63,171 nt of DNA, filler included, from Dicyema japonicum (GCA_011109175.1; 12 parts of 12 records of this genome joined end to end with filler, not necessarily neighbours in it); one strand, 5' to 3'. Shown: positions 3,499-63,032, numbered from the whole stretch's first letter. The notes: generated by a model from the letters alone, not told the origin. A program made the numbers and translations.

Positions 3499-4100
3499 AC
3501 ATCCAAACTTTCCCCAAGATTGTGCAAACCCTCACTCCCAAAGAAAAAGTTCATAAAGCTAGTTTTCTTTTTCAAGGCATTTGAAATAGAAACCGCCTTC
3601 TTACAGGCACACAAAGCTTTAGTTTTGTCATCCTAAAATTCTATTACAAAATTTAATTTTAAAAATAATTATTAAAATAAAAATTCAAATTTTCTTTAGA
3701 TTTTTCATAAAAATTATTAATAAAATTTACAAATTTACAAATAATAAATAAAATTTTTAAATATTGATAATGTGCGACTGATTAAATAAATTAACCGAAT
3801 CAAACGTAAGCAAAGCCTTGATGGTTAGCAGTACAGCGTAACCCATGGAGTGGTACATTGAGTTGTCGGTACTTTAATTATTATTAAATTAACTGATTTT
3901 TGAGAATATCAATTGCTTGACTATATTTGTTGTTCAAAAATAGATCAAGTGCAATCGAGCAATCATCAATTGAACTTTGTAGAGTTTCCTTGTGGTCTAA
4001 ATCTTCGATGTTTGATACTCCACAATTTTGAAATTCTTCTGCGTCGTAAAATTCCTAATGAATTGTTTAGTTAAGTCACCTCATCATCAATCTTCTCCAT
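3499..4100 (-). CDS. TTC39: Tetratricopeptide repeat protein 39 (IML2/DUF3808 family), first four exons, running into the gap
   Basis: Exons 4100-4080, 4054-3894, 3871-3796, 3632-3509; GT-AG introns of 25, 22 and 163 nt. Spliced frame is open: MEKIDDE-EFYDAEEF...SSIDDCSIALDLFLNNKYSQAIDILKNHTDNSMYHSMGYAVLLTIKALLTFDS-DDKTKALCACKKA, matching the TTC39 motif ALNLFLNNKF..A...L......SMYH..GY......A.LTF. Confidence 0.85.
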
Positions 4101-4259
4101 AATTAAATACACACAATAAAATAACCTAAATTTATTTAAATATTTTAAAAATACTTAATTAATATATAATTACATTTTAATAAAAATTTCATTTAAAATT
4201 TTAATTTTTATTGTTGCCTCTACTATTGATCACTTGTTGCCTCTACTACTGAGTGAACG

Positions 4260-5460
4260 TAGAAGCGCTCACATAAGAGAGGGGTTTAAAAAAAGCACCG
4301 CCTATAGTAAAGGGGCTAATTAGTAAACTCCGTGTTCCCAAATGGGATTTCAAAGAGTTGAGGAGGGCAAAGGTGGAGTTAGAGGGGGCAATGATGGTGT
4401 ATAAGAGGAAACTCTATACACATGAAAGTCGGTGTAAGAGAAGGAGAGAAAATAATCTGTTTGAGTTTAATCACATATTGTTTTACCTGTCGCCTACACG
4501 AAAATGGCTATAGTGCATGTTCCCAGCAGGACGCGGAAATCCTTTCCACATGGGGTAGTACGTGGAAGGCTAAACCATACAGAGGAAATGCGTGGAATTT
4601 ACCGTACAGCGCCGCTCCTTTCTTGGCAGAATCTTGCGGAATTTTCGATTTTCGTAAGAAATTTGAGGCGGTAGTGAGACATCTCCCTGATTGGAAAACG
4701 ACCGGGGTCGATAAAGTTTATAATTTCTTCATCAAACGATGCACTTCATTGCACGAGTCTATGTGCCGTGTATTACAGAAAAGCATCACTAACCCGGAAA
4801 CTATTTCTGATTGGGCCTGCACAGGGTCAACTTATTTGATCCCAAGCTGGACAACCCTCAGTCTGCTGCAGATTATCGACCAATAACCTGCATGCCAACC
4901 CTGTATAAACTGATGACCAAATTGGTGGCTAATGAAGTCAGGAGCTTTATAGAAGCAAATGGGATTCTCTCCTAGAATCAGTTGAGTACTGTGCGAAATT
5001 GTCAGGGGGCAAAAGAGCAGGCTTTAATTAACAAGTGCCTTTCTGTGTCTCACGGAAACTCACTTTTGTCTATGTGAATGGATGTGAAGAAGGCTTACGA
5101 TTCAGTTGATCATTCTTACCTAATCGAGTGCCTACACAGTCTGTGTATGCCTGTGTGGTTCATCAGCTTTGTAGTGGCTGTGATGAATTTGTGGAGTATT
5201 CATCTGAACTATAATAGGCACCGGATAGGAGAGGTAAAACAAAGAGGGGATCTTTCAAGGGGATAACATGTTTCACTGCTCTTTGTTCTCTGTTTGGAGC
5301 CATTGAGTCGCCGCCTCAATGACCGATTTGAGCAAATACCAGTTCATTGTGAGGGGGTTTGTTTAAGTACAAATTACCTTCTTTTTATCGATGACCTGAA
5401 GATGTATGATCGAACAGCCGAGGAACTCTACTCCATGGGGGTATGGAATTCTTTAAGAGT
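4260..5460 (+). mobile_element. R4/Dong-clade non-LTR retrotransposon, degraded RT
   Basis: KRRRENNLFEFN, GSTYLIP, YRPITCMPTLYKL-like stretch, MDVKKAYDSVDH, QGD, LFIDDLK; several stops and frameshifts. Confidence 0.85.
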
Positions 5461-5519
5461 ATAGGACTAGATTTGAATTATTCAAAGTTTGCGACTAACA
5501 CGCAAGTATGTAGCGATAA

Positions 5520-6020
5520 ATTTCTTAACATGACATCCTTCGATCCTTCAATGGTGCACTCAGTAATCAGGAAAATAAATAACTCGTCGTCTCGCGGTTT
5601 AGATGACATCTCTATTTTCGAACTCTTCAATATGTTCCTCAGTGACCTCCCGTTCCCAACCACAAAAAACACAATTCTTTTATTATATGCGGATGATCTC
5701 GTGGTCGCATTAAAACATCGAAGAATCGAGTGGACGATCGTACAAGATCTATTAAACCTGATGGGTCTTTGGTTCCTGAAGAACCGTCTGAATATATCAC
5801 CATGAAAGTTACATGTAATGAAGTTTACCCCACCACGAAAAAAAGTACAGGCAACACCACGAATAAAATTGTATGACTCCCTGCTTCCCATTACGAAGAC
5901 CCTTTCAATCCTTGGATCCTTTCCTCACATTCACTCATCAAGTGGACCTAGTAACCGCGAGGATCCAAAAGAAAATTGGAATTCACTCACTCTCCAGTAT
6001 CTACCCACCCATCATTAGAA
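5520..6020 (+). mobile_element. APE-type (Jockey/I-like) LINE RT fragment with internal deletion
   Basis: SSRGLDDIS joined directly to LFNMFLSDLP...LLYADDLVV...LNISP. Confidence 0.7.
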
Positions 6021-6039
6021 TTTATATACAAACAATTTG

Positions 6040-7830
6040 TTCTACCTAGTATCGAGTACACCTGTGCTGCATGAATTGCCCGTTATCACTATCAGCACAG
6101 AGCAAGCTGGAAGTTTTTCAAAACTGATGTCCCAGAATACTACTGAGATCACCGAAAAAAATGTCCACTTTGTTGCTACTGAGAATAGTAAACGTCTCCC
6201 AATCATGGAATACGTTACGGAACGTCATAGGACTTACTCAAGATGACAAAGTCCCCTGACCATTCCCTCGGGCCGGACATAATACTATATATGTACGCCT
6301 GCCCGAGATATGAGAAGAAACCTTCGCTATTGTGTAAATTAATCCAGTGCTCCAAAGGACTGATGTGGATACGGGGATCACTTAATTGGACGATAACTTT
6401 TATCCTTTTTCTCGTGATTTCTGAGTTAATAAATATCCCCATGGAGTATCCATAAAAGATTATCGTGTCTTTTAAATCCTTTAATTGTAACAAAATGTGA
6501 TTTCTCGTTGGTTTTGGCTTGTAGAATTGATGAGCCAAACAATATTCTCTAACATTATAAGAAATTGACAGTCTTCTTGGAAGATGAACACAATCTTTGT
6601 TAAATGCAAATTCATTAGTATACAATGTTCAGTGGTCGGGATAAAGAATTACCTTTAAGGTGATTTGTGGATTATTATTCCACGTGTTCTAAAAAGTTAG
6701 TAGTTGGTAGAATAATCATTTACTGTTCAAAATCACTTATAATGAGGTCAACTATATATGTCATTAAAACACAAAAATCTCGACTCAACAATCAATGCCA
6801 ATATAATAAGCCAAATTATTATTAAATCTGCCGAAATAAAAATCTCTAAAGCTTGCATCCAGTAGAATAATTTAACGTGTTGACTCAAAAATGAAATTAT
6901 TGAACTTTTCTTAATCAATAATGGTTAATTATTTAATAGAGAATACTTATTAATATCAAATAAACCAAACCCCCCATATTAATACAATTAATTAGTGAAT
7001 AACCTATATTTGCCTCTTCTGTGACATGACATTATTAATATCAAAGCAATGAAATCAATGACACAGCAAAATACTGATATTATGGCATCCCGGTTTATAT
7101 ATGATGATTTAATATTTTGAGTTATCGCTTTTTGAGTAGACGGTTTAGTTTTAATTTGAGTTCTATCATTTTTTGAGGGACTTTTTCATAAGTTAAATTT
7201 TTACAAAATACCCCTAAAATAAATAATACAATAACCTTCATTAATAAGAAATGGCATTTCTGGCATCCCTTGATTGAACAATTTGACCATTAAACAAGAA
7301 ATATTAAAAGAAACATAAGAAAATTAAAAAAATAGTTTGACAGGCATATTCCCCATTAAAATAAATCAGTTGCCTATTAAGTGTAATCGTATAATTACTA
7401 GAATTATCTAAAAATGAATCGTCACAATTACAAATAGGTATATCTTTACAAGGTTATACATACTAATACGAAAATGAAACTTAAAATATAAATTAATATT
7501 TTGTGATGATAGAGTTTGATAAATTCTATTTTTTATTTGATTGTGGTGTATTTGGGAATTTTCTGTGTTAAACATGAATTTCATATTCTAGTATTAGTAG
7601 AAAATTACAAACTTTATAATCTTTCATGTATGCTACTTTTGGAATACCTTTTAAAAATGCTTTATTTTGTGCATTCCAAAGATTTAAAATTCTATTTAAA
7701 CGTGCTTCTTAATAGTTATTCAAATGACCACAGTCAACATTAGTATATACCATTTGATTTTGAATTACAGGACTTATTAAAATAATTAATAATTCATACC
7801 CACATAGAGATACGGTCATTTATAGATTAT
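6040..7830 (-). pseudogene. Unassigned degenerate multi-exon gene, possibly a membrane protein
   Basis: 136-aa ORF 6215-6625 extended upstream through one TGA; hydrophobic stretches (IISVFCCVIDFIALILIMS; IFISADLIIIWLIILALIV); short GT-AG intron-like segments; in-frame stops. Confidence 0.25.
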
Positions 7831-7959
7831 TATTTATTTAGATTATTTTATAATTATTAAATTATTATTAATTTAATAAAATTTATTAAAAATATCTCAA
7901 ATGATGAATTAATATGTCTGAATTTAGAGACACTTTATTAAACCAACTAAAAAAGTTAC

Positions 7960-8400
7960 TATTTGACGTTTAACAACCTTCCTCGTCAATTGTCTAATTT
8001 ACCCCTCTTTCTATCTACGGGCTATGTCTCTCATACTCCAATGTAATACTCTTTAGGGTTTGTTTTAAAATAGTGAACTGTAGGTATCCCTGGAGCCTCT
8101 ACCTTGATCTATCCTGGTGTTCTCTAATAATTTAATGCTAGGAACAAATTCCTCGCATTTAGAGACGTCTTACACAATAACGCTGCTCTTTTACGGATGA
8201 CTTCAGTAATTTGTCGCTTTGTCTCAGGCATTATAAGGGACTTTGGAGATTCGGTAACACCCAGATACTTATATCCTTCGTGTTCCTCTAGGACTCTTAC
8301 TAACTCGCTACATACTTGCGTGTTAGTCGCAGACTTTGAATNTTATTAATGTCTCTGAAACAAGAATCGATTTAGTCCTTAAACGTTCTATTACAAAAAC
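7960..8400 (-). mobile_element. R4/Dong-like RT thumb fragment
   Basis: EEHEGYKYLGVTES...LLCKTSLNARNLFLALN. Confidence 0.65.
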
Positions 8401-8699
8401 AACCGTGTCAATAAGTTAGAAATAGTCAGAATAAAACAATTTTACGAGATCCATTCAAAAGCCATAAGGCAGCCGTCCTGACTGTGTGGCTATTCTTTCT
8501 CAGGATTGCGAGCAAGATTCGCTAAAAATTGTTAGCAGCGTTCGACGAGATCTCCAGTAAATGTAGAAATCCGATTCCTTAGACGACTCCATAATCATCA
8601 AGTCGAGGTCCCAACAAATAACACATCAATTTGTGAGTTTGTACATCTAACATTTACATAAATAATCACCACTGAACTTAGACAGCTTATTATTCACTA

Positions 8700-9390
8700 T
8701 ATCAATAATTTTCATCAACCCATAGTACACGTGGTCTATGTAAAATTGGGTTGATAATAAACGAGGAGGGTCATTCAAAGAGAATAATAAAAAGAACTCT
8801 TTGATCAACCGAAAGTTGTTTAATGCAAAAGATAATCAGATGTGACTTGTCTCTGAGACAAAACAGAACAATACTAAAATAACACCACAACAAACAAATT
8901 TAATTTCCCGCCTAAACAAATCCTCAATGGATGACTGCAATTAATATATAAGAATTACATTATCAACAATCAATAAAGAATCATCACAACTACAATCATA
9001 TGCAAGAGTGTAGAGATGTCTCATCGGTTGGATATGGTATCGATTACCATTGCCACGTGAGGGGAAATGAGGGTAAAAGGCACATATAATACCCACAACA
9101 CCACGTGGAGTACATGTCAGCCGATGTCTTATAAGATCACTGTTTATTACCGGCATTTTGCAAAGAAGAGACCAATGGACATTGCCACAGCCATATGTGA
9201 ACCATAGTTGTCATATTTGTACATCTCATCACTCACAAACATGCTTCCCAGACAACGACAAGCTGCAAGTACTGTCACACAACTACTTCCAAACATAATC
9301 TAATAATAATCAAATCTACCAATGAAGCAGACAAAATGAGTCACGATATTGTATTCTCTTGCATGGGAAATATACTGTATTCCAAAAAAT
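8700..9390 (-). pseudogene. ANAPC1: Anaphase-promoting complex subunit 1, PC-repeat region fragment
   Basis: After removing introns 9319-9300 (20 nt) and 9150-9128 (23 nt): IMFGSSCVTVLAACRCL...NYGSHMAVAMSIGLFF...GIICAFYPHFPSRGNGNRYHIQPMRHLYTLA, matching APC1 YPHFP....DNRYHLQA.RHLY.LA; in-frame TGA stops on either side. Confidence 0.85.
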
Positions 9391-9999
9391 TGTAGAGAAA
9401 GCCCAACTAAACTGAGTTAACTGCAAACAATANCTAAAGTTTGTCTTAGAATTCTGAGTTTATCTCCAAAATTGAAAAAGTTTCTTCTCATACTTTGGGA
9501 AGGATTCTAGAATAATTAGACTGACCCAAATGGATGGTCTAGATTTTTGACCATTTTAAGAAAATATTGCTGGCGTTTCAATGAACCATTATTGGTGTTT
9601 CGTTTAATGTTTTCCATAATAACAAGATAAAAGAGAGTCACAANNNNNNNNNNNNNNNNNNNNNNNNNNNNNNNNNNNNNNNNNNNNTTAATTAATTAAN
9701 NNNNNNNNNNNNNNNNNNNNNNNNNNNNNNNNNNNNNNNNNNNTTATTCCACAGAGACGAGGCGAAAAGCTGGTCGAAGGTGTGCGACTATGAACGTGAC
9801 CTGAGGAGGTAGGAGTAAGTAACAAAGTCGGATTAACCAAAAAATATCGGCTTTCCTCCGGGTGTCCCTTTGTATATTCTGTGGTCATTTAGCAGGTCTA
9901 GGAAGCTATCTCTTTCGTTGACGACGAGACTTTTAAGGACATTTTTCAGAAGCATGGCAAGTTCCCTGTTCAGGTAAATCTCAGGTGTTTAGAGTAACA

Positions 10000-10800
10000 G
10001 ATCTGACTGAGATTCCAAATACAGAGGATGCTCAGTGATTACGAAAAGTGTGAATCCGGATAACATTCGTAGCAAATTTGATTTAAACCGAGCGAGGAAG
10101 ATTTGGAGAGGATAAACGGTTGTGGTCGGGAACATCGGTCTCTAGTTTCAATCTTAGTATTTTTCTAATTATCTTAGTTCCAAATCTATGTGGGATTATC
10201 CATTTCTGAGTGGTTACATGGGATTTCTTGTATTTTTACTTATTAATATTGTTCCCTGATTTGGTAATCTATTAGCTCTCAGTCCACTGATACACACGGT
10301 GTTTAGAATATGTAAAATATTTTAATTTGCCTGGGGATATCTTATTTTGGCATATACAGATTATGCCATGACATCAAAACCAAATCGAGGATTACCTATT
10401 GGCTGTCATTGAGAGATCATTATGGTCCGTCGCATAATGAAACGAAAGCGTAAGGAAAAGTATTCAGGCCTCTCCCAGGAAGTCACATTCATTCCACTCG
10501 GGTATAAAAATACAGAGCACTTGGACCTTTGATTTTTTCATTTAGCTCTAATAATACTGCACTTTACAAAATGACCTCAAAAAAACGCTGCCGGGTGAGT
10601 GATCCCAGACCGACAACTTGGGAGCTGGGTCCATTGAAGACGGGCGTCCAGAAATGCCCTTCTAAAAGGCAGGGTTTCGACTCATATCTCATGTTCGTCT
10701 GGAGATATGAGATTAGTAGCTCATGCAGAGGATGACCTGGTATCCTTGCTTCTCTGATGAGAATTCTTTGTTTTTGGATGTAAAGATCTTCTGTAGATGT
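10000..10800 (-). mobile_element. APE-type LINE C-terminal remnants
   Basis: RIPGHPLHELL tail motif and downstream decayed C-terminal region. Confidence 0.4.
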
Positions 10801-11049
10801 ACGAGATACAATTTCTTTGTTTATATGTAGCTTGATGTCTTTTAAGTATCTAAGTGATTCTCAACAATGAATTCTACAGTAACAGTGTTGGGGTGAAGAA
10901 TTTATAAATTATTCTGAATATCAACACCATTGGTTATAAAAATTTGTAAAAGCGTGTTTTTTTGTTTTTATAAATTGTCACGTTTTGTAAACTTTGATGA
11001 TCAATTTAAGCGAAGATCCTTGAATAGGGTGATAGTTAATATGCTATGT

Positions 11050-11720
11050 CGCTAATAATAATGACTCGGCCATTAGTTGATCCCCACCTCAATCAGTAGC
11101 CTCCTTACTTGGTTCTGTATATCTATTTATTTAATAACTCAAGACCGCGGTAAACCAAACTAATTATCACGTGATCCCGATGCGATTAAACAGCGATCTC
11201 ATCTTTGACCAGTGTTCCTAAGTGGCTGGCATGATCTTACATGGCGGCTGACTGCTCTTACTGGGGCGCATTCTGGAGTCTAGTCTCATAAAAGCGTCAG
11301 TCCGGTTCGGTGATCTCAACAAATCCAGTGCTTTGTAATTCTGAAAACCCTCTTTTAGATTTCTTCAATCTTCCTCATATTTGTCCAAGATACAGCCATA
11401 AGGGATGCTTCGCATTAGATCCCCGACATGATAATATCATCGAAAGAAGATGGTCTTTATAGGTTTGGTGTAGCATGCTCAAGGAAAGGATCCAGGTGCG
11501 GAACGAAGATATTAACAAGGGATAGTCTTCTTTCGTTGTCCAGCGATTATTTCGTGACCTCGACATCCCCAACATGTTCCTCACCTGCGATGAGATGTGT
11601 ATGATTTCAGCTTCTCTTTGTTAGAGTGACCAGACCTCCACCTATTTCTCTAGTCTATCCTGATAGCCTTGCATCCGGGAATGAGGGGTTAGGTCATTTA
11701 AATCGAGTTTGGTGTGTTTA
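11050..11720 (-). mobile_element. R4-like C-terminal fragment, related to the copy at 49240-49680
   Basis: RL...R.IGGGL motif; nucleotide similarity to the 49.3-49.6 kb copy (ACGTGATCCC.ATGC, CAAATCCA..GCTT). Confidence 0.45.
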
Positions 11721-12179
11721 ATCATAACCATGTTGATCTTCTACTTGTCAGGTTAGCCGAGGTCCCTGGTTTTCTTTTAAATTTCAATGATGTTCAGCTG
11801 AAGAACAGTAAAGTGATTTTCTCTTCTGTGGACTCAGGAAATGCATCGCCTGGAGACGAGAATGTCAAGGAGGATCTAAATGTCATTTTTCTGTGGATTA
11901 GTGCCCCCTGAACGTTTCCAGATCCTTTTGAATCGATAGACCACATAAAACTGAGCTAATAGTTAATACAGAATTTATTTAGAAACCCTGGATCTCCGAG
12001 AAAGAATCCCAGTTTCCGCAATCAATCAATCTAATGTAGTGGTCTTCTATTGTTCCACTTCTCTCATCCCTTCAGAGGAATCCGATTGGAAAAAAGAACC
12101 TTGCCTTGGAAAAAACAGGCGAAATGGATCTACATCCTCTCACAGAGCCGGAGAAATCTACATCTGTGATTACGGTTTG

Positions 12180-13259: not shown

Positions 13260-14229
13260 TGACGACATCCAAAAAATTCAATTAGATGTATTTTTTATGG
13301 ACCGATTTGAAAAATCTAAAAAAAAGATACAGAAAATTATCAGAACAGTTAATTTTTGAAGACGAAGGGATAGTATACATAAAATACAAAAACCAGAGGT
13401 TACGTTTTTTCCCCCAAGAAGAAAAGGAACTTGAACTAATAAAAACTATCGAGGTGATTGTTACATAATCATTATAGATTGAACATATGAGGACACATTT
13501 TGGAAGAGAGAAGTTGCTTTCGATACTGAGGAAGGAAATTTATGCAGTAACCCGAGACGAAATTACTGCTGTGAACTCAAAATGCGTCCACTGTCAGGTG
13601 CATATGCATTGAATTATTTGTAGTCAAAAAAGTTGATGGCGACTAAGCCAACAATTACTCCTATTATTGCAAGAGGGCTTAAAGATCGCTATATTGCAGA
13701 TTTGGTGGATTTAAGAAGGTATGCTAGCCTTAATAGCGATAATGGATGGGTATTCCTTTCTAATTTAATTGTAGTTGGTTGTGGTTATAGATTCATTTTT
13801 CAAATTCGCAGCTGTAAAACTTGCCAAACGGAAATCTGCGGAGGAAATTACGAGAAAAACAAGGAATAATTTCTTGATGATTGGTCCCTCATTAATTCTA
13901 CAGACGGATAATGGGAAAGAATTTAAGAACAAATGTATGGAAACAATGTGTAATGATTTAAAAATCATACACATAAGTGGACGACCTAAAGCACCATGGA
14001 TTCAGGGTCAAGTAAAGAGACAGTTATTTGTAAATTTATCTTTAGATACAATCAATCGATCAAAAGGTGGATTAGCTCCACTAGTGCGTCAAATGGGTCA
14101 TTTGTCAGCTATAAGCAGATAGATTATAACATGGCAAAGCATCAAGTTGCTAAAGATACCTGCGAACTTAGAGATACGAATGACGATTTATTTAAAAATG
14201 TACACAGAAGTCGTCTGAAAAAAATATGA
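13260..14229 (+). mobile_element. Ginger/KRBA2-like DDE integrase, frameshifted
   Basis: H..THFGREK...CVHCQ zinc-binding remnant; ADLVDLR, VIDSFFKF, ILQTDNGKEFKN, SGRPKAPWIQGQV. Confidence 0.8.
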
Positions 14230-14672: not shown

Positions 14673-14675
14673 AAN

Positions 14676-16480: not shown

Positions 16481-17165
16481 TTTAATCAAAATGCTCGGAG
16501 ATGCGAGGAAAATGCGTTTTGATCAATATTTTCCAATCAAAAGTGTTGAGAAATATCTCGACTACGATACAATCACCATCCGGATCTCCACATCAAAACG
16601 TGCACTTGAAAATGGTTGATATTCCTCTATGATAAAACCTGTTGGTCTGGACGGATAGATCAAAAACAATCTGACGGAAATACAATATGGGGGAAGCTAC
16701 TGGTATGAGACGGGTATCGTCTCCTTTCTAATACAAGCATCGTCGGTATTGGGGTAAACGAAATATCTGACACATAAAAGGTCGAGAATTTTAGACGAAG
16801 AAAGAACGAAGGATTCTTGAAGCGATTAACGTTGTGAGACAATTAGAGACCTAAGTAGAAACCTGTCCAGTGGAGTGGGGGGAGCAAATGATCCTTTTAT
16901 GTACCAGCCTGGCTCTGGGCGCTACCTGAGACAGGTGACGCAACTGTAGTAGGAAAAACAGCAGGCAGAACAGACAAAAACAAAAAACTTAAATCAATTA
17001 AAGTGCCACGCGGCTATAGCTTTTTAAGGGACTGAGACAACTAGCTACACTCAAAGATAACATCGGTGAAACACAGTGGCTCCATTGCATTGTGAAAGGC
17101 AAAATTAAAAAAAATGAAAATATTTAAAACGTGTAAATAATCAATATTTAATTAATTTAAATTAA

Positions 17166-17632
17166 CTGGTTGATGATGAAAAGGCTCTCAAATGTGTCAC
17201 CAACGCTGAGAGAAAGGGAAAGAGGCAGGTCATCATCCCTGCTTCGAAAATGATAGTCCAGTTTTTAAGGATGATGCAGAAATATCGTAGCATTTTGACT
17301 TTCAATTTATAGTATATATCTCCAGTTTTGAGTTTGTGGTCGCCAATGGCTCGAACAAGATCGTCGTCAATCTCATTGGGAGGATCAATCGAGTAGAATT
17401 CAAATTTATGCTTTAGTGTGGAGTTATAAAGCCACGTTTTGACGTAGCTCATGTAGAAATTGAGTAGTGGACCACCAACCTACTGCCATCTCGTCAGTTC
17501 GGGTTTTGTTGGTCTCTTATCTTTAGACACGTTATATTTACCACTTCCAAGGGAGTCGTTGAACACGGGTATGCAAGGAAGAACAAAGTTGGTGGAAAGA
17601 TCCTTGGATTTTTCTATTATGTTCTTATTTGA
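17166..17632 (+). pseudogene. RPS15A: 40S ribosomal protein S15a (uS8), unprocessed pseudogene
   Basis: Introns 17287-17312 (26 nt), 17393-17416 (24 nt), 17503-17526 (24 nt). Spliced: ALKCVTNAERKGKRQVII-PASKMIVQFLRMMQKY..ISSFE...KIVVNLIGRINR/CGVIKPRFDV...[19 protein letters not shown]...[10 protein letters not shown]. Lesions: start CTG plus 5' deletion, missing Arg codon, TAG at 17465-17467, normal stop read as TAT. Confidence 0.92.
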
Positions 17633-17967
17633 ACCATTTTTCTAAAATAATCTATTTTTATGGGCGAGGTGACGGACTCGGGAGTCATTGGAAACCCAAA
17701 GTCCTGAAGTAAGCGTCTAATTCACACAGTTCCACATTCGAACACAGTCCAATCCAAAATTGAATAAAGTCGAAGGATCATCTATTAGAAGCTTCACGGA
17801 TCATTAGCTTAGACATGCGTTGATGACTTTAAATGCTTTTCACAGAAAACAAGAAGGATTCCTGCTAACAGTATTATGGAGTCTACTTCCTCTGCTAAGA
17901 GGCTTTTAGAGGGAAGCCAAGAACAACGTAGTCATCAATAAGGACATTAGACTCGGGTGATATAGAC

Positions 17968-20213: not shown

Positions 20214-20797
20214 ATGTCGTTGTGTTTGTTTTCATTGTTTAACTTTTAGTTAAAGTAGAGTTTTCCAATAATTATAATCAACAATTGAAGATAATTTTGA
20301 AAAAATTTTGTGACATTATAAATTTGATTAAAAAAAATAATGTTGATGGCGCTATTATTTTGGAGAAGGCGTCGAACTCTCAACTGTTTCATAACCAATG
20401 TCAAAAAGAAATACCGTCAATCTATTTTAGAGAATATTCTATTGTGTCTAAAAGTAAACTACAATCATTTTATCTCGAACTTTATATTATTTCTAAAAGA
20501 ATTGATTCATTAAATAGAAAAATGTATAAATTGCTAACAAACCTAAAATCTTTAAGAAAATTGGATGAATTTCAAGAATTTTGTGATTTTCACTTTTTCG
20601 ATCTTTGTTGCGATATATGCCAAAACTTGTATTCACAGAGTGTAGAAGATTATGAACTAAAATGTGGAATTATTTCCATATTTAGAAATATCAATGCTAA
20701 TAGTTCTTCTATAATGAGTCTTATTTCACTTTGGTTGAAACAAGTATCGTTGGATGAAACTCTTGAAGTAAAAATTAGAAATTTTATACAAAATTGA
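20214..20797 (+). CDS. CINP: CDK2-interacting protein (CINP)-like, two exons, 185 aa
   Basis: ATG 20214, exon 20214-20223, 26-nt GT-AG intron 20224-20249, exon 20250-20797, all in one frame. C-terminus Y....ELK..I.......SSSIMSLISLWLKQVSLD resembles CINP Y.KEL.LK......L.YLSMWLHQPY; N-terminal N.DG.I....SN also aligns. Confidence 0.6.
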
Positions 20798-21480: not shown

Positions 21481-21489
21481 TATTTGTAA

Positions 21490-32996: not shown

Positions 32997-33758
32997 CTAA
33001 TAAATCTCTTTCTTAGCTTCTTCTCTTACATTTTTGTCACGTGCCTCGATTAAAGGTATTACGTCCCTAATCAATCTCTTTACGGATATAATTTTGTTTC
33101 CAAATTGTCTAATATAATTATTAAAGGTAACTCTAAAGATTCTTTCGTAATTTGTAAACATGAAACACATTTTTGTCAAGTGCCTCGATTAGAGGTATTA
33201 CGTCCCTAATCAATCTCTTTACGGATATAATTTTGTTTCCAAATTGTCTAATATAATTATTAAAGGTAACTCTAAAGATTCTTTCATAATTTGTAGACAT
33301 GAAACAACCACTTTTAGATTCTTGTGGAATATATCCTTAAGTAACTCGTCCTGAACAATCTCAGACTTTTCCTTTTTTATATAATTGAGAATAATTTCCA
33401 GGAAAGTTGTTTTGTCTTAGGTTTAGAACCCAAACACTTTGACACAATCATTGAGATTACATCACTTACCATTCTGTTGATTAATTATTAGTACTTTTCA
33501 GCAGTCACAGTATTTGATACAAATGATTGTGCAGCTTCCAAGGCTTTGTCGAGATTATTCATATTCAAATCGCATAATATCTTCGGGACAAGTGATGAGT
33601 ATGTTAACATTTGAGGTTCTTTTTCATTACAGAATTTGAAGAATTTTGACAATTCTGAATATTCAGTAGCCCGTCAGTTCTTCACTATTTACTTTATAAC
33701 TTATTTTATGTACGCATTTCTCTTGAGTCGGTAATTTGGAAAAATCTTTCTCACTCAT
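32997..33758 (-). pseudogene. CKAP5: XMAP215/ch-TOG first TOG domain, 5' fragment
   Basis: MSEKDFSKLPTQEKCVHK...LDKALEAA..FV.N...SKCL..K.KTK...EII..Y...EK.E.VQDELLK....KN.KVVV.CL...L/FGNKII..K...PL.E.RDKNVREEAK. Introns 33704-33685 (20 nt, donor mutated to AT), 33494-33474 (21 nt), 33270-33248 (23 nt); frameshifts and stops. Confidence 0.88.
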
Positions 33759-42225: not shown

Positions 42226-42387
42226 CTTATGGTGGAAAAGCATAATTTTTTAGATAAAAATTTGTACTAAATTTGAAGTAAAAAATATTTATAAATTGGC
42301 TAACCAAAATGTGTTTGTAATAAAATTTGACGTAATGGAGTTAGGTTTGTGAAGATGTACAATCATGATCGATGCGCTGATATTTTC

Positions 42388-44050
42388 TATCATTCCTGGG
42401 AAAAGCAGCAAAAAAAGTAAAATTAAATTCTAAATGAAGGCGTTCACAGCTTGGTGTAATTCCCACAACCGGAAAACCAACTGCCAAATAGCTGAATTTG
42501 ACACTGATTTATCCGATTGATTTTTACTAATTCGTCTGCTTGAAGTAATTTCCAACGAGAAAATTCATTGGTTGAAACCAAAAACACGCGGCTTCACAAA
42601 ATTATCAACGTCAATCAGGTTCTTAAATTCATGGTCAGCAAGGGAGTGAAACTCGTCTCAGTTAGAGCAGAAGGTACAGATGTACTGCTTTTATCAGAAA
42701 TAGTCGACCGAAATGTCAAAATTACACTGGTGATGATCCGGACCATAATCCTACGGTTCGCAATACAAGGTATCACGATGGAAAGTAGGGCTGGCTTTTT
42801 TAAATCCACAGAGAAATTTGCCAAGGAAGGGCTGCTTTTGTGGTGTCAACGAAAGACTGCTGAGTATGAAGGAGTGAATATCAATAACTTCCATACTAGT
42901 TATAAGTACGGACTAGCCTTTGCTGCTATAATTAATAGACACAGACCAGATCTAATAGAATTTGACGATTTAAAGCATTACACGTATTTACCCAAGCCTG
43001 AAACACCGGAAGAGAATCTAAGGCGAGCATTCCAAGTAGCAGAGAAGCATCTGGATATACCCTGTATGCTTGACCTCGAAGGTAACTAGGTTTATCATCT
43101 TAGATTTCGCTGGACGTGCGGATGAACGTTCTGTTATGACATATGTCTCCTCGTTGTATCAAAGATTTATAAAGGACGAACTGGTGTAGTTTTGTGTTAC
43201 TGGTAGACAACTAAGACAGAACAGAATGTATGCTCTTTGATAGGAGTAGTGAGGGAGAGTGAGATATTTTTGTATCTGCTTGAGGGTAACTCTGTAATGA
43301 TCTCGTGTATTAATAATAAAAAAGACTGACTGTCCAAACGACCAGAATTCGGGAGTTCTGATGAGATGAGGGAACAGTTAGAGAAATACAACTTGTTTTC
43401 CATGAAAGAGATGCCTTTTAAATATTCAGAGAACGTTCAAACGGAGATCATCGCGCACATCTTGAAAGCAATGCAAGTCAATAGGAGTGATTTTAACGAC
43501 GGACTATTCCATAATATTATCATGGAGTGGACGAGTATGGAGGATTTACCCCAAAAGTACAAGGAATGGATAAATTCCGAGAATAACAGGTCACGTGGGT
43601 AATAAGTTGTAGATTTAAGTTTACTGAAAGTGTGACTATGTGCTTCCATCGCAAATGTGACTTTTATGATGCGTGGATTTCAGGTAGGAAGAAGAAATAA
43701 ACTCACGTGGATTGTCCGACTTGAAGGTACTCATAATAAGTGATCAAGGCTACGATTAACGAGTGCTTCCATCACAAATGTGACTTTTATGATGCGTGGA
43801 TTTCAGGTAGGAAGAAGAAATAAACTCACGTGGATTGTCCGACTTAAAAGTACTCATAATAAGTGATCAAGGCTACGATTAACGAAACTAGGATTGTGAT
43901 GAACGCATTGAACTATCAGATTATTACTGATTTTGATGATACAACTGACGGTCACCGTGAGAATGGATACACGTTAATAGATTTCGTGGACAATCGGCTG
44001 AATACGATTGGAGGAGAGTTTAAAGTATGCAAAACTAATATCGGAAAAGG
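42388..44050 (+). pseudogene. ACTN: Alpha-actinin: two CH domains plus first two spectrin repeats, unprocessed pseudogene or error-rich copy
   Basis: WEKQQKK/AFTAWCNSH...LLEVIS...HKIINVN...[16 protein letters not shown]...ILRFAIQ...[13 protein letters not shown]...HRPDLI...[13 protein letters not shown]...DERSVMTYVS. Introns 42417-42439 (23), 42674-42697 (24), 42785-42811 (27), 43082-43103 (22), 43184-43206 (23), 43590-43612 (23). TGA stops, frameshifts and substitutions at conserved W/G positions. Confidence 0.92.
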
Positions 44051-44059
44051 AGGATATTG

Positions 44060-44965
44060 ATGAGCAGTTGGTGGTTGTTTCCGCGATATGCGATAGCCAG
44101 ACTCCATTTCCGCGATGAGGCCGACTTAATGCTTGCTAGTCGGTGTTGATTGGCAAGCAAAGTTCGACTGAAATTCAAAGCCCAACTCCCCACAACTTGC
44201 TAACTCTATCAAGCTCCGAGTCCAAGGTATGTCTGATTGCGTTACATAGGACCCCTTGGACCAAGCGACTGCAGCTAGCAAGGGATGAAAAGTAGGAACG
44301 CAAGGAGGGATCTAAACACAATTTCCCATTTCTCGCAGGTATTTGCACATTGTCCAGCCCAGATCATCGAATTTGACATTCAGTATTGACTGTGTGATCG
44401 TCTCAGAGTCCCATCAGCCGACGATAGTGCTCTCTGGTGTTCAAAACATGGTGAACATCTCAAAATGTACATCCTCTTCGACATGGAAATACATTTCTTG
44501 AGCAATAAAAACGACACGTGGATCCAAAGATGATACTCTGTAAAGGCTTCAACTTAATTATCCTTAGTGGTGAGGCAGTTTTCCAGCTCGTCGTTTCCGA
44601 GAGGGTAGCCGAAAAAGTGTGCATTATCCAAGGAGGATGTGCTAAAACATGGAAGTAAGGATCTGAATTCTTGGCAGGCAGTAGAAATGCTTGGAGATGA
44701 GCAGGAAATCAGTTCCGATTTCATAACATTTACACTTAAACCCAATTGGTTTAGAGCTGGAATGGTTGAAGAAATATCCTGATATACATACTTCAAATTC
44801 AGTGGGAGTAAAAGCTGCGAGGTCTTCTAGCATTGTCAAGTTCCGCTGGTTCGGTGGTGGAGCAGGGTGCTTCCTTCTCAGTAACTCCAAGACTTCTCGG
44901 CATGGCTTCAACAGTGATTCGTCACAAGACACTACTATTACAGCTGCGTGAACGTCCCCTTCTAT
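44060..44965 (-). mobile_element. CRE-clade fragment, same subfamily as 35-36.7 kb, internally deleted
   Basis: KHPAPPPNQ joined to LGLSVNVMKSELI...GYPLG...; high nucleotide similarity to the 35-36.7 kb copy. Confidence 0.85.
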
Positions 44966-45687
44966 GTTGAAATTAAGCTTTATTCATGAGTAGCCCCAAT
45001 GGCTGATACTCATTGCACATACTCTTGGCCTTATGAAGCTTTACTTCTCAATTTAACAAACGGCAATTTTCACAATTACAATTGAAGTAAAATTACAATC
45101 AACAATATTAATGAAGTACTTCAAGAAAATGGATGGACCCTCTTTGTTTTCGATGAGACCTAAAAGAATCCCGCCGATCATTTTTATTTCTCATTCAAAC
45201 GTATTCGAAGGCTTGAAGATNNNNNNNNNNNNNNNNNNNNNNNNNNNNNNNNNNNNNNNNNNNNNNNNNNNNNNNNNNNNNNNNNNNNNNNNNNNNNNNN
45301 NNNNNNNNNNNNNNNNNNNNNNNNNNNNNNNNNNNNNNNNNNNNNNNNNNNNNNNNNNNNNNNNNNNNNNNNNNNNNNNNNNNNNNNNNNNNNNNNNNNN
45401 NNNNNNNNNNNNNNNNNNNNNNNNNNNNNNNNNNNNNNNNNNNNNNNNNNNNNNNNNNNNNNNNNNNNNNNNNNNNNNNNNNNNNNNNNNNNNNNNNNNN
45501 NNNNNNNNNNNNNNNNNNNNNNNNNNNNNNNNNNNNNNNNNNNNNNNNNNNNNNNNNNNNNNNNNNNNNNNNNNNNNNNNNNNNNNNNNNNNNNNNNNNN
45601 NNNNNNNNNNNNNNNNNNNNNNNNNNNNNNNNNNNNNNNNNNNNNNNNNNNNNNNNNNNNNNNNNNNNNNNNNNNNNNNNNNNNNNN

Positions 45688-46524
45688 TATATAATTATAT
45701 TATGAATTTTATCTACTAGATGAATCTTAGACCTATAAAATTATTATAGAATTAGCACCGATTAGTATAACGATTTGAATTCTAATCTGTATTATAAATT
45801 AATAGTAACTATAGGCCAATATAATATAACAACCTGGAATCAAACTACGACGCCTATACAATTATATTATGAATTTTATCTTCGAGATGAATCTTAGACC
45901 TATAAAATTATTATTGAATAAGCACCGATTAGTATAACGATTTGAATTCTAATCGGTATTATAAATTAATAGTAACTATAGGACAATATTATATAACCAC
46001 CGGGATTCAAACTACGACGCCTATACAATTATATTATGAATTTTATCTAGAAGATGAAGCTTAGACCTATAACATTATTATTGCAATAAATGTCGATTAG
46101 TATAACCATTTGAATTCAACTCTATATTATATATACAGGGTTACTATTTAGCATTATAATTCAACCACTTGAAATCAAACTAGGACGCCTATATAATTAT
46201 ATTATGAATTTTATCTACGAGATAAATCTTAGATAAATAACATTATTATGGAATCAGCACCGATTAGTATAACGATTTGAATTTTTATCGGTATTATAAA
46301 TTAATAGAAACTATAGGCCAATATAATATAACCACAAATATTCAAACTACGACGCCTATATAATTATATTATGAATTTTATCTACGAGATGAAGCTTAGA
46401 CCAATAAAATTATTATTGCAATAAACGCCGATTAGTATAACCATTTGAATTCTAATCTGTATTATATATTAAGGGTAACTATTTAGCATTATAATTCAAC
46501 CACTTGGAATCAAACTAGGACGCC
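45688..46524 (+). repeat. Tandem satellite, five 167-168 bp monomers in order A A B A B
   Basis: Monomer starts at 45688, 45855, 46022, 46190, 46357, each beginning TATA(T/C)AATTATATTATGAATTTTATC and ending CAAACTA(C/G)GACGCC; abuts a roughly 470-N gap. Confidence 0.95.
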
Positions 46525-47019
46525 TAAAGCAACAGTCACTAATGCTCTCCTCGCCGTTAAGACCAACTTTTTTCTAGGAATTCGTTTGAGAACGGGAGCC
46601 TTACTGACATCTCCAAAATTCTTAAAAATACATGCAGGAAGTGAGTGGGTTATCGGAAAAATCAAAGCGAAAATTTGGCGGTTTCTAAGAAAGCCACTAT
46701 CACGTTACGGACACGTATTCTATATAATTTTTCGATGATTCTTGGCTTGAATAAATATGGACAAGAGTATACATCGATTTTGAAGTGATAATACCACCTA
46801 TACTTCAGTACTTAAAAAGTTTCGGACGTCTTCGCATTTGCCTGTTTTTTGATTGACAGATAATTTTACCAGACATATTTCTAATAATTGTGTAACTGAT
46901 GCAATTATCCCTGGCAATCGGTGGGGGAGGACTCATTAATTATTATTAAAAAACTGTTAGAGAAATTTAACTAGGTAAAGAATCCTCCTATACCACATTC
47001 GCATAATAAACTTTTTCAA

Positions 47020-58949: not shown

Positions 58950-59430
58950 AAATGAATCCATTATTTGAAGGTCTTAGTTTGAAGATAGTTAAATACGCAC
59001 ACATTCATGACTGTTATTTTTTTCACGCACGATCATTCCATCACTCCTTTAACACTGCATACAAAGAACGTTTTATCTTGCTTTTTGAAAAATCGAGGAG
59101 AGCAGGGTTCAAGATTACCTTATTTATTTTTTTCACGCACGATCATTCCATCACTCCTTTAACACTGCATACAAAGAGCGTTTTATCTTGCTTCTTGAAA
59201 AATCGAGGAGAGCAGGGATCAAGATTACCTTACACAAAAGGCTCGACAAAAAGCTAGATGAAGATGAAAAATTGCTAGTAATGTCGATAAGAGATGCAGC
59301 AGGAAAAGGGATCGAAAACTTTTTAAAAAGAGATGTCATCATTAACTCGTATGTTGCAGCACAGAATAAACGATAAGAGAGGTCTGCGAGCGCAGAGAAG
59401 AGTCCAAGAGTTTTCAGGACTTGCGGCATA
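58950..59430 (+). mobile_element. APE-type LINE tail fragment
   Basis: LLEKSRRAGIKITLHKR...LDEDE, homologous to 39844-40047. Confidence 0.5.
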
Positions 59431-59726: not shown

Positions 59727-59796
59727 TGGAGATGTCGGGAATCGAACCCGACCTTCAACATGCAAAGCAGACGTCATACCATTAGACCACATCCCC
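59727..59796 (-). tRNA. tRNA-Ala: tRNA-Ala(UGC), possibly degenerate; 5' half repeated at about 59912-59951
   Basis: GGGGATG/CATCTCC acceptor stem with G3:U70, discriminator A, D arm GTC...GAC, anticodon loop TT-TGC-AT, T arm TCGGG-TTCGATT-CCCGA. One T-T mismatch in the anticodon stem and a 3-nt variable loop. Confidence 0.8.
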
Positions 59797-60059: not shown

Positions 60060-61088
60060 TCTGTTCTAAATTTTTAATCGACATCATTTAGATCACTATT
60101 AATTATGAGAGGCAGTGCTAACCTCAGTGTTCCCAGTATGATCTTCCCATTACGTAAAGTAACTTTATTTTCTAAAGTGGCCTAACCTTTACATAAGCTG
60201 TGATCAATCAACTTCCACTATGATCTCCGTTTGCTCAGTATTACATAATTTGTANNNNNNNNNNNNNNNNNNNNNNNNNNNNNNNNNNNNNNNNNNNNNN
60301 NNNNNNNNNNNNNNNNNNNNNNNNNNNNNNNNNNNNNNNNNNNNNNNAAGTGGCCTAACCTTTACATAAGCTGTGATCAATCAACTTTCACTATGATCTC
60401 TGTTTGCTCAGTATTACATAATTTGTAGGTGTCATGTTCTTTATTTTGTCTCATATATTGAGGATAGAGCATCAGAGTGCAATTAAAAACTAAGGTTTTC
60501 AAAATATCATGTTTTGGTAAAAATGTCAATGGACTGCGAATCCAAGTCTATAATCGCTTGAAGACAGCAAACACTGATCGCTTAACATATGAAATCATTT
60601 TCTAGAGTTTTTTGATTTGAATTTGAGATCACTGGTGTTGAGGGTTTCAATGGAGAGCAGAAAACTAGTAAGCAATTGGAAGGAAGCCATTTGTATATTA
60701 TTATAGGCAATTAGGCTATGTAATAAAATGTGACAAAGCATGTGGAAGACGGATAATCAAACTAATAGGTAACTTCTTCCATGTCAAACTTATTATAATG
60801 CATAATTATGAGTAATGGTTAAAGTGAGGGATTAACGTATATTTCTACCCCGTTTCCTCAAGTAAAGCTTTTCTATATTCATCANACTGATCGCTTAACA
60901 TATGAAATCATTTTCTAGAGTTCTTTGAATTGGATTTGAGATCACTGGTGTTGAGGGTTTCAATGGAGAGCGGAAAACTAGTAAGCAATTGGAAGGAAGC
61001 CATTTGTATATTATTATAGGCAATTAGGCTATGTAATAAAATGTGACAAAGCATGTGGAAGACGGATAATCAAACTACTAGGTAACTT
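60060..61088 (-). mobile_element. Gypsy/Ginger-type integrase C-terminal remnant
   Basis: DYLPHAL...N...TNGF.P resembles W...LP...YN...TG.SPF; heavily decayed and duplicated across N. Confidence 0.4.
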
Positions 61089-61189
61089 NNNNNNNNNNNN
61101 NNNNNNNNNNNNNNNNNNNNNNNNNNNNNNNNTTAATTAATTAANNNNNNNNNNNNNNNNNNNNNNNNNNNNNNNNNNNNNNNNNNNNA

Positions 61190-61860
61190 TGAGTGAAGGG
61201 AAGGATAGTGGAGTAGCATGTCAGTGCGTCCGGAGACATGTTTTGACCACATCGGAATAGCCAGTAAATATCCGCATTTACAGTAAAGTCTCCAAGAAGG
61301 AAGAGGTATGACTTTGTCCGCCAAGGGAGACCTGGGAAACGTATTAGCATCAAAGTCCCCCAACTCGACTCTCATTCAACTTTTCTACTTAATAAATTTT
61401 CTTGCTGCTGAAAGTTCCCACTATGGTTGCCTTTTCTGAACAGACAAGAAACCTGAACAAATATTTTTCCTACAATCTCGATCGTAAGGAAATAGGAAGA
61501 ACAGCTATATCCAAGTTCCTCAAATTGTCTTGCAAAGCTATTAGCATTTGGTCTACAAATAATGTGGATCAAAGAAACAGTCTTTTTAAGTACTCTTTGT
61601 TTATTTTGGTGTTCACAAGAATAGTCACAAATGCGAAATTAATCAGTCTAACTCAACTTACCTCACTATTGAATACTGATCTCTTTATAGGAGTTCACAA
61701 TTCACAGTAATCTATTTCACTCCAAATTTCTTTCCAATTTGGAATAAGCAGATCTAACCTACCTTCCACAAACAGCCGAAACTATCATCAACCAAATCCC
61801 TTTAACGTTCCACGATATAACCCTCAACATTTAGGAATAGTCCTTGACTACAAAGTCTCA
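61190..61860. mobile_element. LINE remnants (minus-strand APE GDFDA; plus-strand RT tail)
   Basis: ELGDFDA at 61375-61350; tail-like ORF 61402-61710. Confidence 0.4.
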
Positions 61861-62329
61861 AAGATCGAATCAAAAAAACAGTACCGGATCTCTTATTTTA
61901 TACAAAAAACGACGTCTTTCATTAATGAAAATATTATCTAAAAAATCTTTAAATTATTTTTTATGGTTAACCTAATTAAAATAATATTTATAACGTGGTA
62001 CTTTTGTCGCTATTGTTTGTTGTTGTTATCACATATTTTCTGTTTTTACAATACATAACATATTTTCATTTTATATTATTGATATTCATTCGATTCTTCA
62101 ATTTTTGTGTTTTTCTAATTTTTAATACCGGGTGTTCTAGAAATCCTGCTATTTCAAATTCATTATTCTGGTTAAACCACGAAAGTTGTATTTATCGACT
62201 GAAAATGTTATTTTACTTGTATCACTACTTTTTCCCATCGATTAATATAAACAAACAATCATTCGTGCATATTTTACACGCACATGGATATTAACACCTC
62301 CTGATTTGCTTATATTTTTGGATGGTTTT

Positions 62330-63032
62330 GTTTGCACATCCTCAGCCATCAGATTCGCCTTATTCCATGCATAATCAAGGGGTGGGTCCTTTCAACATGG
62401 AATGGAATAACTTCCACGATCCTATTTTAGTACACCTCTTTGACGACACAAACTAAACTATTGAAGTTCCCCCCGTACTTGCCTTCTTGTATGCAGCGTA
62501 TTCAAGACAGTTGTGGGCGAGTCCAATGGCAGACTTTTTCGATCGATTTTTATTTTGTCGAAATCTAGAATATTGATTTCTAATATATACCGTGAATCGT
62601 ACTCCGCGACATCATCCCCTCCTAGACCGATGGTGGAGACATCCATTTTGATTGGTGTTGTTCCAAAACCAGACACAATGAATGTCTCTACCACCCCCGA
62701 GTTTTCTTTCACTGCGATGATTTTTCAAAAATATCGAATTCAATATGAATCTTTTTTCGGAGAAATTCACTTTTAGACAAATCCTTACGAGGGTGAAACT
62801 GGTTGGGAAGTGTTCTTTCCTAGCAATAATTAACATCTGATTCCTCAATAAATCGCGTAGTTGGAATAACATCTCCGGCGAACATTCATTGAAAAGTTCG
62901 ATTTTTTCGTTTTCATCACTATCTACAAAATAATATCAATACATTCTACTTATTGGAATCTATTTCTGTTCTTCAGGAGTCCGCCGCAAGAACGACTTCT
63001 CCACGGCAATGTACACAGATAATAGTAGTACC
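62330..63032 (-). pseudogene. Divergent 20S proteasome beta subunit (catalytic type, beta5-like) pseudogene
   Basis: G|TTIICVHCRGEVVLAADS*RT (N-terminal Thr at 63029), 27-nt GT-AG intron, FIVSGFG..P, SAIGLAHNCLEYAAYKKASTGGT, VVKE/GSWK; multiple frameshifts. Confidence 0.6.

What the first reader, a model, noticed from the sequence alone, without database searches (positions are those of the whole stretch)
3499..63032. Miniature spliceosomal introns (20-27 nt) with almost no splice signal beyond GT...AG
Seen: across eight genes, 20 of the 21 introns I could delimit are 20-27 nt; the exception is 163 nt in TTC39. Donor sequences vary freely after GT (GTGAC, GTTAA, GTAGC, GTTTT, GTTTG, GTACA, GTCAC, GTTGG, GTATG), and I see no consistent branch-point motif. 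Established: introns this small are known from only a few lineages, such as Paramecium, dicyemids and chlorarachniophyte nucleomorphs. Inference: introns here may be defined by length on a reduced spliceosome, in a reduced parasitic animal such as a myxozoan or dicyemid.
Basis: partly seen in the sequence, partly recalled or inferred. Interest (0 to 1): 0.78.

Follow-up and report, generated by a model that had tools for sequence, protein, structure and literature searches.

The report
Known tiny introns of parasitic animals

Summary
I delimited 23 introns in 8 loci: 22 are 20-27 nt (median 23.5), one is 163 nt. Spliced alignment with no length preference (12-250 nt allowed) placed 8 of 8 RPS15A and actinin introns at 22-27 nt, and GT..AG ranked first of 256 end pairs in both genes. 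A second genomic RPS15A copy has 1-nt indels inside two of the introns. No RNA was available, so splicing is inferred. Corrections: the window is 12 joined scaffolds and several gene copies are broken; donors are degenerate (+5 G in 3 of 22), but acceptors are not bare: pyrimidine at -6 in 22 of 22, at -3 in 20 of 22, and a branch-like TnAY at -7 to -10 in 16 of 22 (6.7 expected). A 'reduced spliceosome' is untested, and published myxozoan data show U2 and U2AF retained. The trait, including weak signals, is published for dicyemids and myxobolids (PMC13644364). Lineage unresolved: dicyemid about 55%, myxobolid 38%. The scan noted similar introns on other DNA.

The parts
4055..4079 (-). TTC39/Iml2 intron 1, 25 nt
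   Evidence: removal of the three TTC39 introns gives 130 codons with no stop up to the scaffold end; Pfam Iml2-TPR_39 on exon 3
3872..3893 (-). TTC39 intron 2, 22 nt
3633..3795 (-). TTC39 intron 3, 163 nt, the one long intron; skips AGs at 18, 102 and 155 nt
   Evidence: the match of the last exon to TTC39 is recalled, Pfam did not hit it
9300..9319 (-). APC1 (ANAPC1) broken copy, intron of 20 nt
   Evidence: frame restoration; upstream match to human APC1 recalled
9128..9150 (-). APC1 intron of 23 nt
   Evidence: downstream exon aligns to human APC1 from residue 1571; frame restoration
8935..8958 (-). APC1 intron of 24 nt with in-frame stop (frame evidence only)
13454..13477 (+). integrase gene intron 1, 24 nt with in-frame stop (frame evidence only)
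   Evidence: four removals give a 281-residue frame with no internal stop; not recovered by alignment to the intronless copy
13598..13623 (+). integrase intron 2, 26 nt (an acceptor at 35 nt is also in frame)
   Evidence: donor recovered by alignment, which chose the 35-nt acceptor
13750..13774 (+). integrase intron 3, 25 nt
   Evidence: recovered exactly by alignment to the intronless integrase copy
14023..14045 (+). integrase intron 4, 23 nt
   Evidence: recovered exactly by alignment to the intronless integrase copy
17287..17312 (+). RPS15A intron 1, 26 nt, phase 1 at profile column 45
   Evidence: length-blind alignment; 1-nt deletion at 17293 in a second genomic copy
17393..17416 (+). RPS15A intron 2, 24 nt, phase 0 after column 71, the position of the human exon 3 end (c.213)
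   Evidence: human boundary from PMC13495045 passage
17503..17526 (+). RPS15A intron 3, 24 nt, in frame and stop-free in the window
   Evidence: 1-nt insertion behind 17509 in a second genomic copy
20224..20249 (+). C1orf109/CINP-like gene intron 1, 26 nt (frame evidence only); gene 20214-20797 is open
   Evidence: family lead from Atlas features, PF15011
33474..33494 (-). XMAP215/ch-TOG broken copy, intron of 21 nt
   Evidence: Pfam TOG profile 19-79 then 89-117 on flanking frames
33248..33270 (-). XMAP215 intron of 23 nt (repeated in the tandem duplicate 33028-33306)
42674..42697 (+). alpha-actinin broken copy, intron 1, 24 nt
   Evidence: length-blind alignment
42785..42811 (+). alpha-actinin intron 2, 27 nt
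43082..43103 (+). alpha-actinin intron 3, 22 nt
43184..43206 (+). alpha-actinin intron 4, 23 nt
43590..43612 (+). alpha-actinin intron 5, 23 nt
   Evidence: weaker alignment in the rod region
62923..62949 (-). unnamed broken gene on contig 12, candidate intron of 27 nt (frame evidence only)
62458..62478 (-). unnamed broken gene on contig 12, candidate intron of 21 nt (frame evidence only)

Best explanation
The 20-27-nt GT...AG segments are very likely ordinary major-class (U2-type) spliceosomal introns shrunk to near the smallest removable size, in a repeat-rich parasitic animal that is probably a dicyemid or a myxobolid myxozoan. Shown: their size, GT/AG ends, placement between conserved coding blocks, degenerate donors, pyrimidines at -3 and -6 and an excess of TnAY 7-10 nt before the end. 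Inferred mechanism: a standard spliceosome pairs the two ends across the intron (intron definition); the donor needs little beyond exon G and GT; U2 would use the TnAY adenosine about 8 nt before the AG as branch point, giving a lariat loop of roughly 13-19 nt; the first YAG after the branch is the acceptor; AGs closer than about 18 nt to the donor are skipped because the lariat cannot form. The narrow length and the residual 3' sequence would together replace the lost +4 to +6 donor bases and the polypyrimidine tract. Several copies in this window are dead duplicates that still show the architecture of the working genes.
For: Length-blind alignment gives 8 of 8 at 22-27 nt; a flat prior over 12-250 nt makes that about 5e-13. 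GT..AG first of 256 pairs in two genes. RPS15A intron 2 lies at the human exon 3 boundary c.213. A deeper genomic RPS15A copy in runs X1-X4 has Lys where the window has TAG and 1-nt indels within introns 1 and 3; the intron 3 indel would shift the frame if the segment were translated. Removing the segments opens TTC39 (130 codons), the integrase (281) and the C1orf109-like gene (185) without a stop. Signals. Published match: D. japonicum Q25/median/Q75 23/24/25 nt, myxobolid medians 22-27 nt (M. honghuensis 64), donor reduced to GTa, weak A run near the acceptor (PMC13644364). For a dicyemid: median 23.5 and 22 of 23 short fits D. japonicum (Q90 32) better than myxobolids (Q75 38-332); GC 35.4% against 36.7%; the only hit of the integrase frame is a protein annotated in Octopus sinensis, 26 of 30 residues identical, and O. 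sinensis is a host of D. japonicum.
Against: No RNA: the four runs behave as genomic DNA and list no joint at any intron, so splicing is not seen. At least five of the eight loci are broken copies, so some sites may have drifted. 15 of 23 boundaries were set partly by hand, which may favour good-looking acceptors; TnAY is not significant in the 8 length-blind introns (4 of 8, p 0.08), and a 5'-anchored window fits nearly as well as a 3'-anchored one (15 against 16). The end-pair control on the integrase did not put GT..AG among the top 10. Lineage: the actinin tree leaves the window on a long unplaced branch; a Phe in the actinin linker is shared with the 3 named cnidarian hits (5 of 120 hits in all, 2 unnamed) and points weakly to Myxozoa; the single published D. 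japonicum RPS13 intron that I could read has A at -6.
Confidence: 0.88

Rival explanations
1. The introns are defined by length alone on a reduced spliceosome, with no usable sequence beyond GT and AG.
For: Donor +5 G lost (3 of 22); 22 of 23 lengths within 20-27 nt; early AGs skipped in 8 of 19; dicyemid introns were reported with the weakest donor score and no branch signature (PMC2483917 passage).
Against: Pyrimidine at -6 in 22 of 22 and -3 in 20 of 22, TnAY excess; a 163-nt intron is present; myxozoans keep an unchanged U2 branch-pairing region and both U2AF subunits; no spliceosome inventory could be made here.
Confidence: 0.15
2. The organism is neither a dicyemid nor a myxobolid but a third animal or close-relative lineage that reached sub-30-nt introns on its own.
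For: No close relative of RPS15A (best 57-61% identity among the listed hits) or actinin was found; the tree does not place it.
Against: Length profile, GC and the Octopus-annotated integrase hit all fit a dicyemid; the homologue searches are word-limited and list only the best 120, so missing named relatives is weak evidence.
Confidence: 0.07
3. The segments are not spliced: they are chance GT...AG gaps, small insertions or decay products in pseudogenes.
For: Many copies are broken; three segments are in frame and stop-free (RPS15A intron 3, actinin introns 1 and 2); no RNA support.
Against: GT..AG ranks first of 256 in two genes; a boundary matches the human one; the copy without the premature stop has frame-breaking indels inside the segments; three loci become stop-free on removal.
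Confidence: 0.03

Closest known systems
Ultra-short introns of dicyemids (Dicyema japonicum, D. acuticephalum, Dicyema sp.; PMC13644364, PMC6736024, PMC6543705, PMC2222250)
   Same: Narrow peak near 24 nt (D. japonicum Q10-Q90 22-32), GT-AG ends, ancestral positions, donor reduced to GTa, repeat-rich genome (49%) at about 36% GC, highly divergent proteins.
   Different: Published descriptions give the dicyemid acceptor as AG only and no branch signature; this small sample shows pyrimidines at -3 and -6 and a TnAY excess. Membership of the organism is not proven.
Ultra-short introns of myxobolid myxozoans (Henneguya salminicola, Thelohanellus kitauei, Myxobolus rasmusseni, M. honghuensis; PMC13644364)
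   Same: 20-27-nt GT-AG introns at conserved positions, donor GTa, weak A run before the acceptor, repeat-rich genomes (68% in M. rasmusseni, PMC11557904).
   Different: Their short class centres on 20-22 nt (three species) or 24-27 nt with a minimum of 22 (H. salminicola), and a quarter or more of introns exceed 38 nt; here the centre is 23-24 nt and 1 of 23 is long, though short scaffolds bias against long introns.
Tiny introns of ciliates and nucleomorphs (Paramecium 20-35 nt, Stentor 15-16 nt, Bigelowiella nucleomorph 18-21 nt; passages in PMC2222250, PMC9505925, PMC2483917)
   Same: Size range, weak donors, branch adenosine close to the acceptor (Stentor), standard spliceosome core retained (Stentor).
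   Different: The window uses the standard code (its TAG in RPS15A is Lys AAG in another copy) and encodes animal-type alpha-actinin.
Ginger DNA transposons with intron-bearing integrase genes (PMC2836005)
   Same: The 13286-14229 gene has an H2C2 zinc finger and an rve integrase core and is split by up to four GT-AG introns; Ginger1 elements carry 1 to 4.
   Different: Introns here are 23-26 nt; terminal inverted repeats and target duplications were not examined, so it is only Ginger-like.

Membership tests
Major (U2-type) spliceosomal introns | GT...AG ends between coding blocks whose joining restores the protein | tested here: met
Major (U2-type) spliceosomal introns | Removal from the mature RNA | not testable with these tools
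   no RNA holder listed; the four runs behave as DNA
Major (U2-type) spliceosomal introns | Branch adenosine in a yTnAy context upstream of YAG | tested here: inconclusive
   TnAY at -7 to -10 in 16 of 22 (p 0.0002) but 4 of 8 in the length-blind subset (p 0.08); YAG in 20 of 22; no lariat data
Major (U2-type) spliceosomal introns | Animal-type extended donor GTRAGT | tested here: not met
   +5 G in 3 of 22, +3 A in 12 of 22; this loss is the published state in dicyemids and myxozoans
Major (U2-type) spliceosomal introns | U1, U2, U4, U5, U6 snRNAs and core proteins encoded in the genome | not testable with these tools
   no genome held; Rfam finds only a tRNA in the window
Dicyemid ultra-short intron system | Most introns under 30 nt with a peak at 23-25 nt | tested here: met
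   22 of 23 at 20-27 nt, median of the short ones 23.5 against Q25-Q75 23-25
Dicyemid ultra-short intron system | Organism belongs to Dicyemida | tested here: inconclusive
   Octopus-annotated integrase hit; tree unresolved; no named dicyemid protein among the hits
Myxobolid ultra-short intron system | Short class of 20-27 nt plus a large tail of long introns | tested here: inconclusive
   short class overlaps; only 1 of 23 is long, but scaffolds are 2-19 kb and alignments allowed at most 250 nt
Myxobolid ultra-short intron system | Organism belongs to Myxozoa | tested here: inconclusive
   one actinin residue shared with cnidarian hits; no named myxozoan among listed hits; tree unresolved
Ginger DNA transposons | Gypsy-like integrase with zinc finger and DDE core, introns allowed | tested here: met
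   Pfam zf-H2C2 and rve; introns
Ginger DNA transposons | Terminal inverted repeats and target-site duplication | not tested
   the gene starts at the scaffold edge (13260); ends were not examined

The most novel reading that the evidence does not exclude
The DNA comes from a third animal lineage, neither dicyemid nor myxobolid, that shrank its introns to 20-27 nt on its own and kept a compact fused branch-acceptor code (TnAY at -7 to -10, fixed pyrimidine at -6, YAG) that published short-intron animals are said to lack. The weaker half alone, a real fused 3' code in a dicyemid or myxobolid, I would put near 0.4.
Probability: 0.06. Interest if true: 0.6.

Novelty: already known. Interest (0 to 1): 0.2.

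Why it matters
As a phenomenon it is already in print for both candidate lineages, so it changes little. Two smaller points are useful. First, the pyrimidine at -6 and the TnAY just upstream give a concrete, testable guess at how a spliceosome finds the 3' end of a 22-nt intron, which the 2026 paper leaves open. Second, gene finders with a 30-40-nt intron floor will misread such genomes, and tiny introns flag parasite scaffolds in fragmented assemblies. Tiny introns persisting in DNA full of repeats and dead duplicates also argue that intron shrinkage need not track overall genome compaction, as M. rasmusseni and D. japonicum already show.

Tried and rejected
Whole genome: none held, so no genome-wide histogram or spliceosome inventory. 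RNA: no RNA holder listed (searched with 3000-12000 only); the four runs laid on 37400-45220 and 17150-17700 cover all bins and list no joint at an intron (15 of 101 joints shown, none), as expected of DNA. Stop-codon reassignment: rejected because the RPS15A TAG is AAG in another copy; I did not test other stops. Placement by actinin tree: long branch, no starred group (37 rows, 4 of 40 chosen hits dropped for lack of the start motif). Placement by RPS15A: best listed hits 57-61%. Profile-free search of the contig-12 gene frame gave 2 hits to unrelated repeat proteins, judged chance. PDB searches for XMAP215 pieces, the 39847-40050 frame, two APC1 pieces and a KH-like piece gave nothing useful. 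Atlas: no usable hit for 59089-59373. Satellite pattern in metagenome contigs: 0; integrase in viral contigs: 0 of 9 candidates confirmed; actinin in metagenome contigs: 80 loci at 51-64%, none close. Rfam: only tRNA-Ala. Pfam was run on 354 stop-to-stop frames of 33 or more codons from 17 chosen regions, not on the whole window. Integrase end-pair control did not favour GT..AG. 3' versus 5' anchoring of TnAY could not be told apart. Left out of the counts: the XMAP215 first intron (20 nt, donor reads AT), the duplicate XMAP215 intron, and candidates in unidentified genes at 9744-10300, 24482-25100 and 38200-39400, which I could not anchor. Earlier findings by place and by sequence: none.


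Full report
What the window is. It is not one locus: 12 scaffolds of 2-19 kb are joined by a fixed 100-nt linker, with 35.4% GC. It is rich in transposon and retroelement fragments (read from the frames; names from recall except the two rve hits), a 167-nt satellite and many two-copy tandem repeats of 67-243 nt, several of which sit on single-N joins and are probably assembly artefacts. No whole genome is held. Four public runs of one sample hold the sequence; laid on 37400-45220 and 17150-17700 they cover every bin, show several diverged copies of each gene and list no joint at an intron (one search shows 15 of 101 joints), so they behave as genomic DNA and say nothing on splicing.

Genes. 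Pfam on 354 stop-to-stop frames from 17 chosen regions found TTC39/Iml2, two integrases, RPS15A, an XMAP215 TOG domain, a calponin-homology domain and TMEM18. RPS15A, actinin, XMAP215, APC1 and the contig-12 gene carry stops or frameshifts; TTC39 (cut by the scaffold end), the C1orf109-like gene and one integrase gene are open after intron removal.

Test of the introns. I aligned profiles built from 102 RPS15A and 107 actinin hits to the DNA with introns of any length from 12 to 250 nt at one flat cost. All 8 introns came out at 22-27 nt: 26, 24, 24 and 24, 27, 22, 23, 23. With each of 256 dinucleotide pairs as intron ends, GT..AG scored first in both genes. RPS15A intron 2 follows profile column 71, and c.213 (Lys71) is the last base of human exon 3 (passage in PMC13495045); that the other RPS15A and actinin sites are also ancestral is recalled, not checked. 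In the reads, a deeper RPS15A copy has AAG at the window's TAG and 1-nt indels in introns 1 and 3, seen in all four runs; of the other three indels listed, one is a 2-nt exon deletion in a minor copy of one run and two lie past the stop. Intron 3 is in frame and stop-free in the window, so the 25-nt form in that copy can only make protein if it is spliced. Using the window's own intronless integrase as reference recovered integrase introns 3 and 4 exactly and the donor of intron 2, missed intron 1, and did not rank GT..AG in the top 10. Adding introns set by frame and domain continuity gives 23 in 8 loci: 22 at 20-27 nt, median 23.5, and one at 163 nt.

Signals. Donors are degenerate: +3 A 12 of 22, +5 G 3 of 22; the last exon base is G in 10 of 20. 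The 3' end is not bare. In 19 short introns, position -6 was a pyrimidine in all 19 (p 0.00035 against interior shuffles, best of 11 positions) and -3 in 18 (p 0.0006). Three APC1 introns added after this all had T at -6. A TnAY with its A at -7 to -10 occurs in 16 of 22 (6.7 expected; p 0.0002 allowing for the choice of window; best of 32 motifs of that shape). Limits: the sample is small, 14 of the 22 were bounded partly by hand, the TnAY and -6 signals overlap, the length-blind 8 give 8 of 8 for -6 but only 4 of 8 for TnAY (p 0.08), and a donor-anchored window holds 15 against 16. Earlier AGs 4-17 nt from the donor are skipped in 8 of 19, which fits a floor near 20 nt.

Mechanism. Most likely a standard major spliceosome working by intron definition: weak donor pairing, U2 on a branch A about 8 nt before the AG, first YAG thereafter, and a steric minimum. 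Size, ends and sequence bias are shown; splicing, branch use and the machinery are inferred. A reduced spliceosome is not shown: Rfam finds no snRNA in the window, and in myxozoans the U2 branch-pairing region is identical to other cnidarians and U2AF1 and U2AF2 are kept.

What is known. Hadjez et al. 2026 (PMC13644364; whole main text read; supplement parts 1, 2, 3, 60, 62 of 64 and one term search; its logos are pictures I could not see and they bear on my 3' claim) report introns under 30 nt in myxobolids and D. japonicum, donors reduced to GTa, acceptors reduced, and a weak A run proposed as branch site. Earlier dicyemid reports: mean 26.2 nt in 16 introns (PMC2222250, passages), median 27 nt (PMC6543705, passages), mean 38 nt and 49% repeats (PMC6736024, passages), weakest donor score and no branch signature (PMC2483917, passages). 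M. rasmusseni is 68% repeats (PMC11557904, abstract passage). Stentor keeps its snRNAs and most core proteins (PMC9505925, passages). Ginger1 transposases carry 1-4 introns (PMC2836005, passages). Ogino 2010 was seen only as cited. I did not find a fixed -6 pyrimidine described in what I read, which is no proof that it is absent from the figures or from papers not held.

Lineage. Unresolved. For a dicyemid (about 55%): the length profile matches D. japonicum quartiles 23/24/25 with few long introns; with rough shares of short introns read off the published quantiles, 8 of 8 short has probability about 0.36 for D. japonicum and 0.02-0.06 for myxobolids, though short scaffolds favour short introns; GC is close; and the one hit of the integrase frame is a protein annotated in Octopus sinensis, 26 of 30 identical, an octopus that hosts D. 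japonicum. That this protein is parasite DNA in a host assembly is my inference. For a myxobolid (about 38%): a Phe in the actinin linker occurs in 5 of 120 hits, the 3 named ones all corals, and the group is diverse and poorly sampled. The actinin tree does not place the window.

Verdict. Real, well supported by homology, unconfirmed by RNA, and already known in both candidate lineages. Earlier notes of this scan describe like introns on other DNA; I used them as leads only.

Noticed in passing
window 13286-14229 (+) and 29760-30470 (-): Two related zinc-finger/rve integrase genes: one is open and split by four 23-26-nt introns, the other is broken and shows no introns at the aligned sites. 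Suggests intron gain or loss within one transposon group.
   Followed up: partly
window 17166-17632 and runs X1-X4: At least three genomic RPS15A copies; the window's has a premature TAG and another has a further stop-making change at 17390. Actinin also has several copies 3-13% apart. The genome seems to hold many decayed duplicates of housekeeping genes.
   Followed up: partly
   Followed up: yes
window 45688-46526 and 40633-40740: 167-nt satellite, five units plus a lone partial unit; the bin with the lone unit has by far the highest depth of the stretch laid.
   Followed up: no
window 38050-38170 (-): tRNA-like segment at very high read depth that ARAGORN and Rfam do not call; possibly a tRNA-derived SINE.
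   Followed up: no
window 39847-40050 (-) and 59172-59373 (+): Two short frames that look alike by eye and have no Pfam, PDB or Atlas match; perhaps a lineage-specific or transposon family.
   Followed up: partly
window 646, 1409, 21874, 27981, 29366, 34315, 60885 and others: Single N bases lie between near-identical two-copy repeats of about 190-540 nt; likely assembly joins of two haplotypes. A similar repeat without an N doubles an XMAP215 intron (33028-33306).
   Followed up: partly
window 60573-60775 and 60886-61088 (-): Two tandem, broken TMEM18-like pieces (weak Pfam hits).
   Followed up: no
window 59727-59796 (-): tRNA-Ala(TGC), with a partial second copy in the 155-nt tandem repeat.
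   Followed up: no
window 33686-33705 (-): The XMAP215 copy has a 20-nt segment ending in AG whose donor reads AT instead of GT, probably a decayed first intron; left out of the counts.
   Followed up: partly
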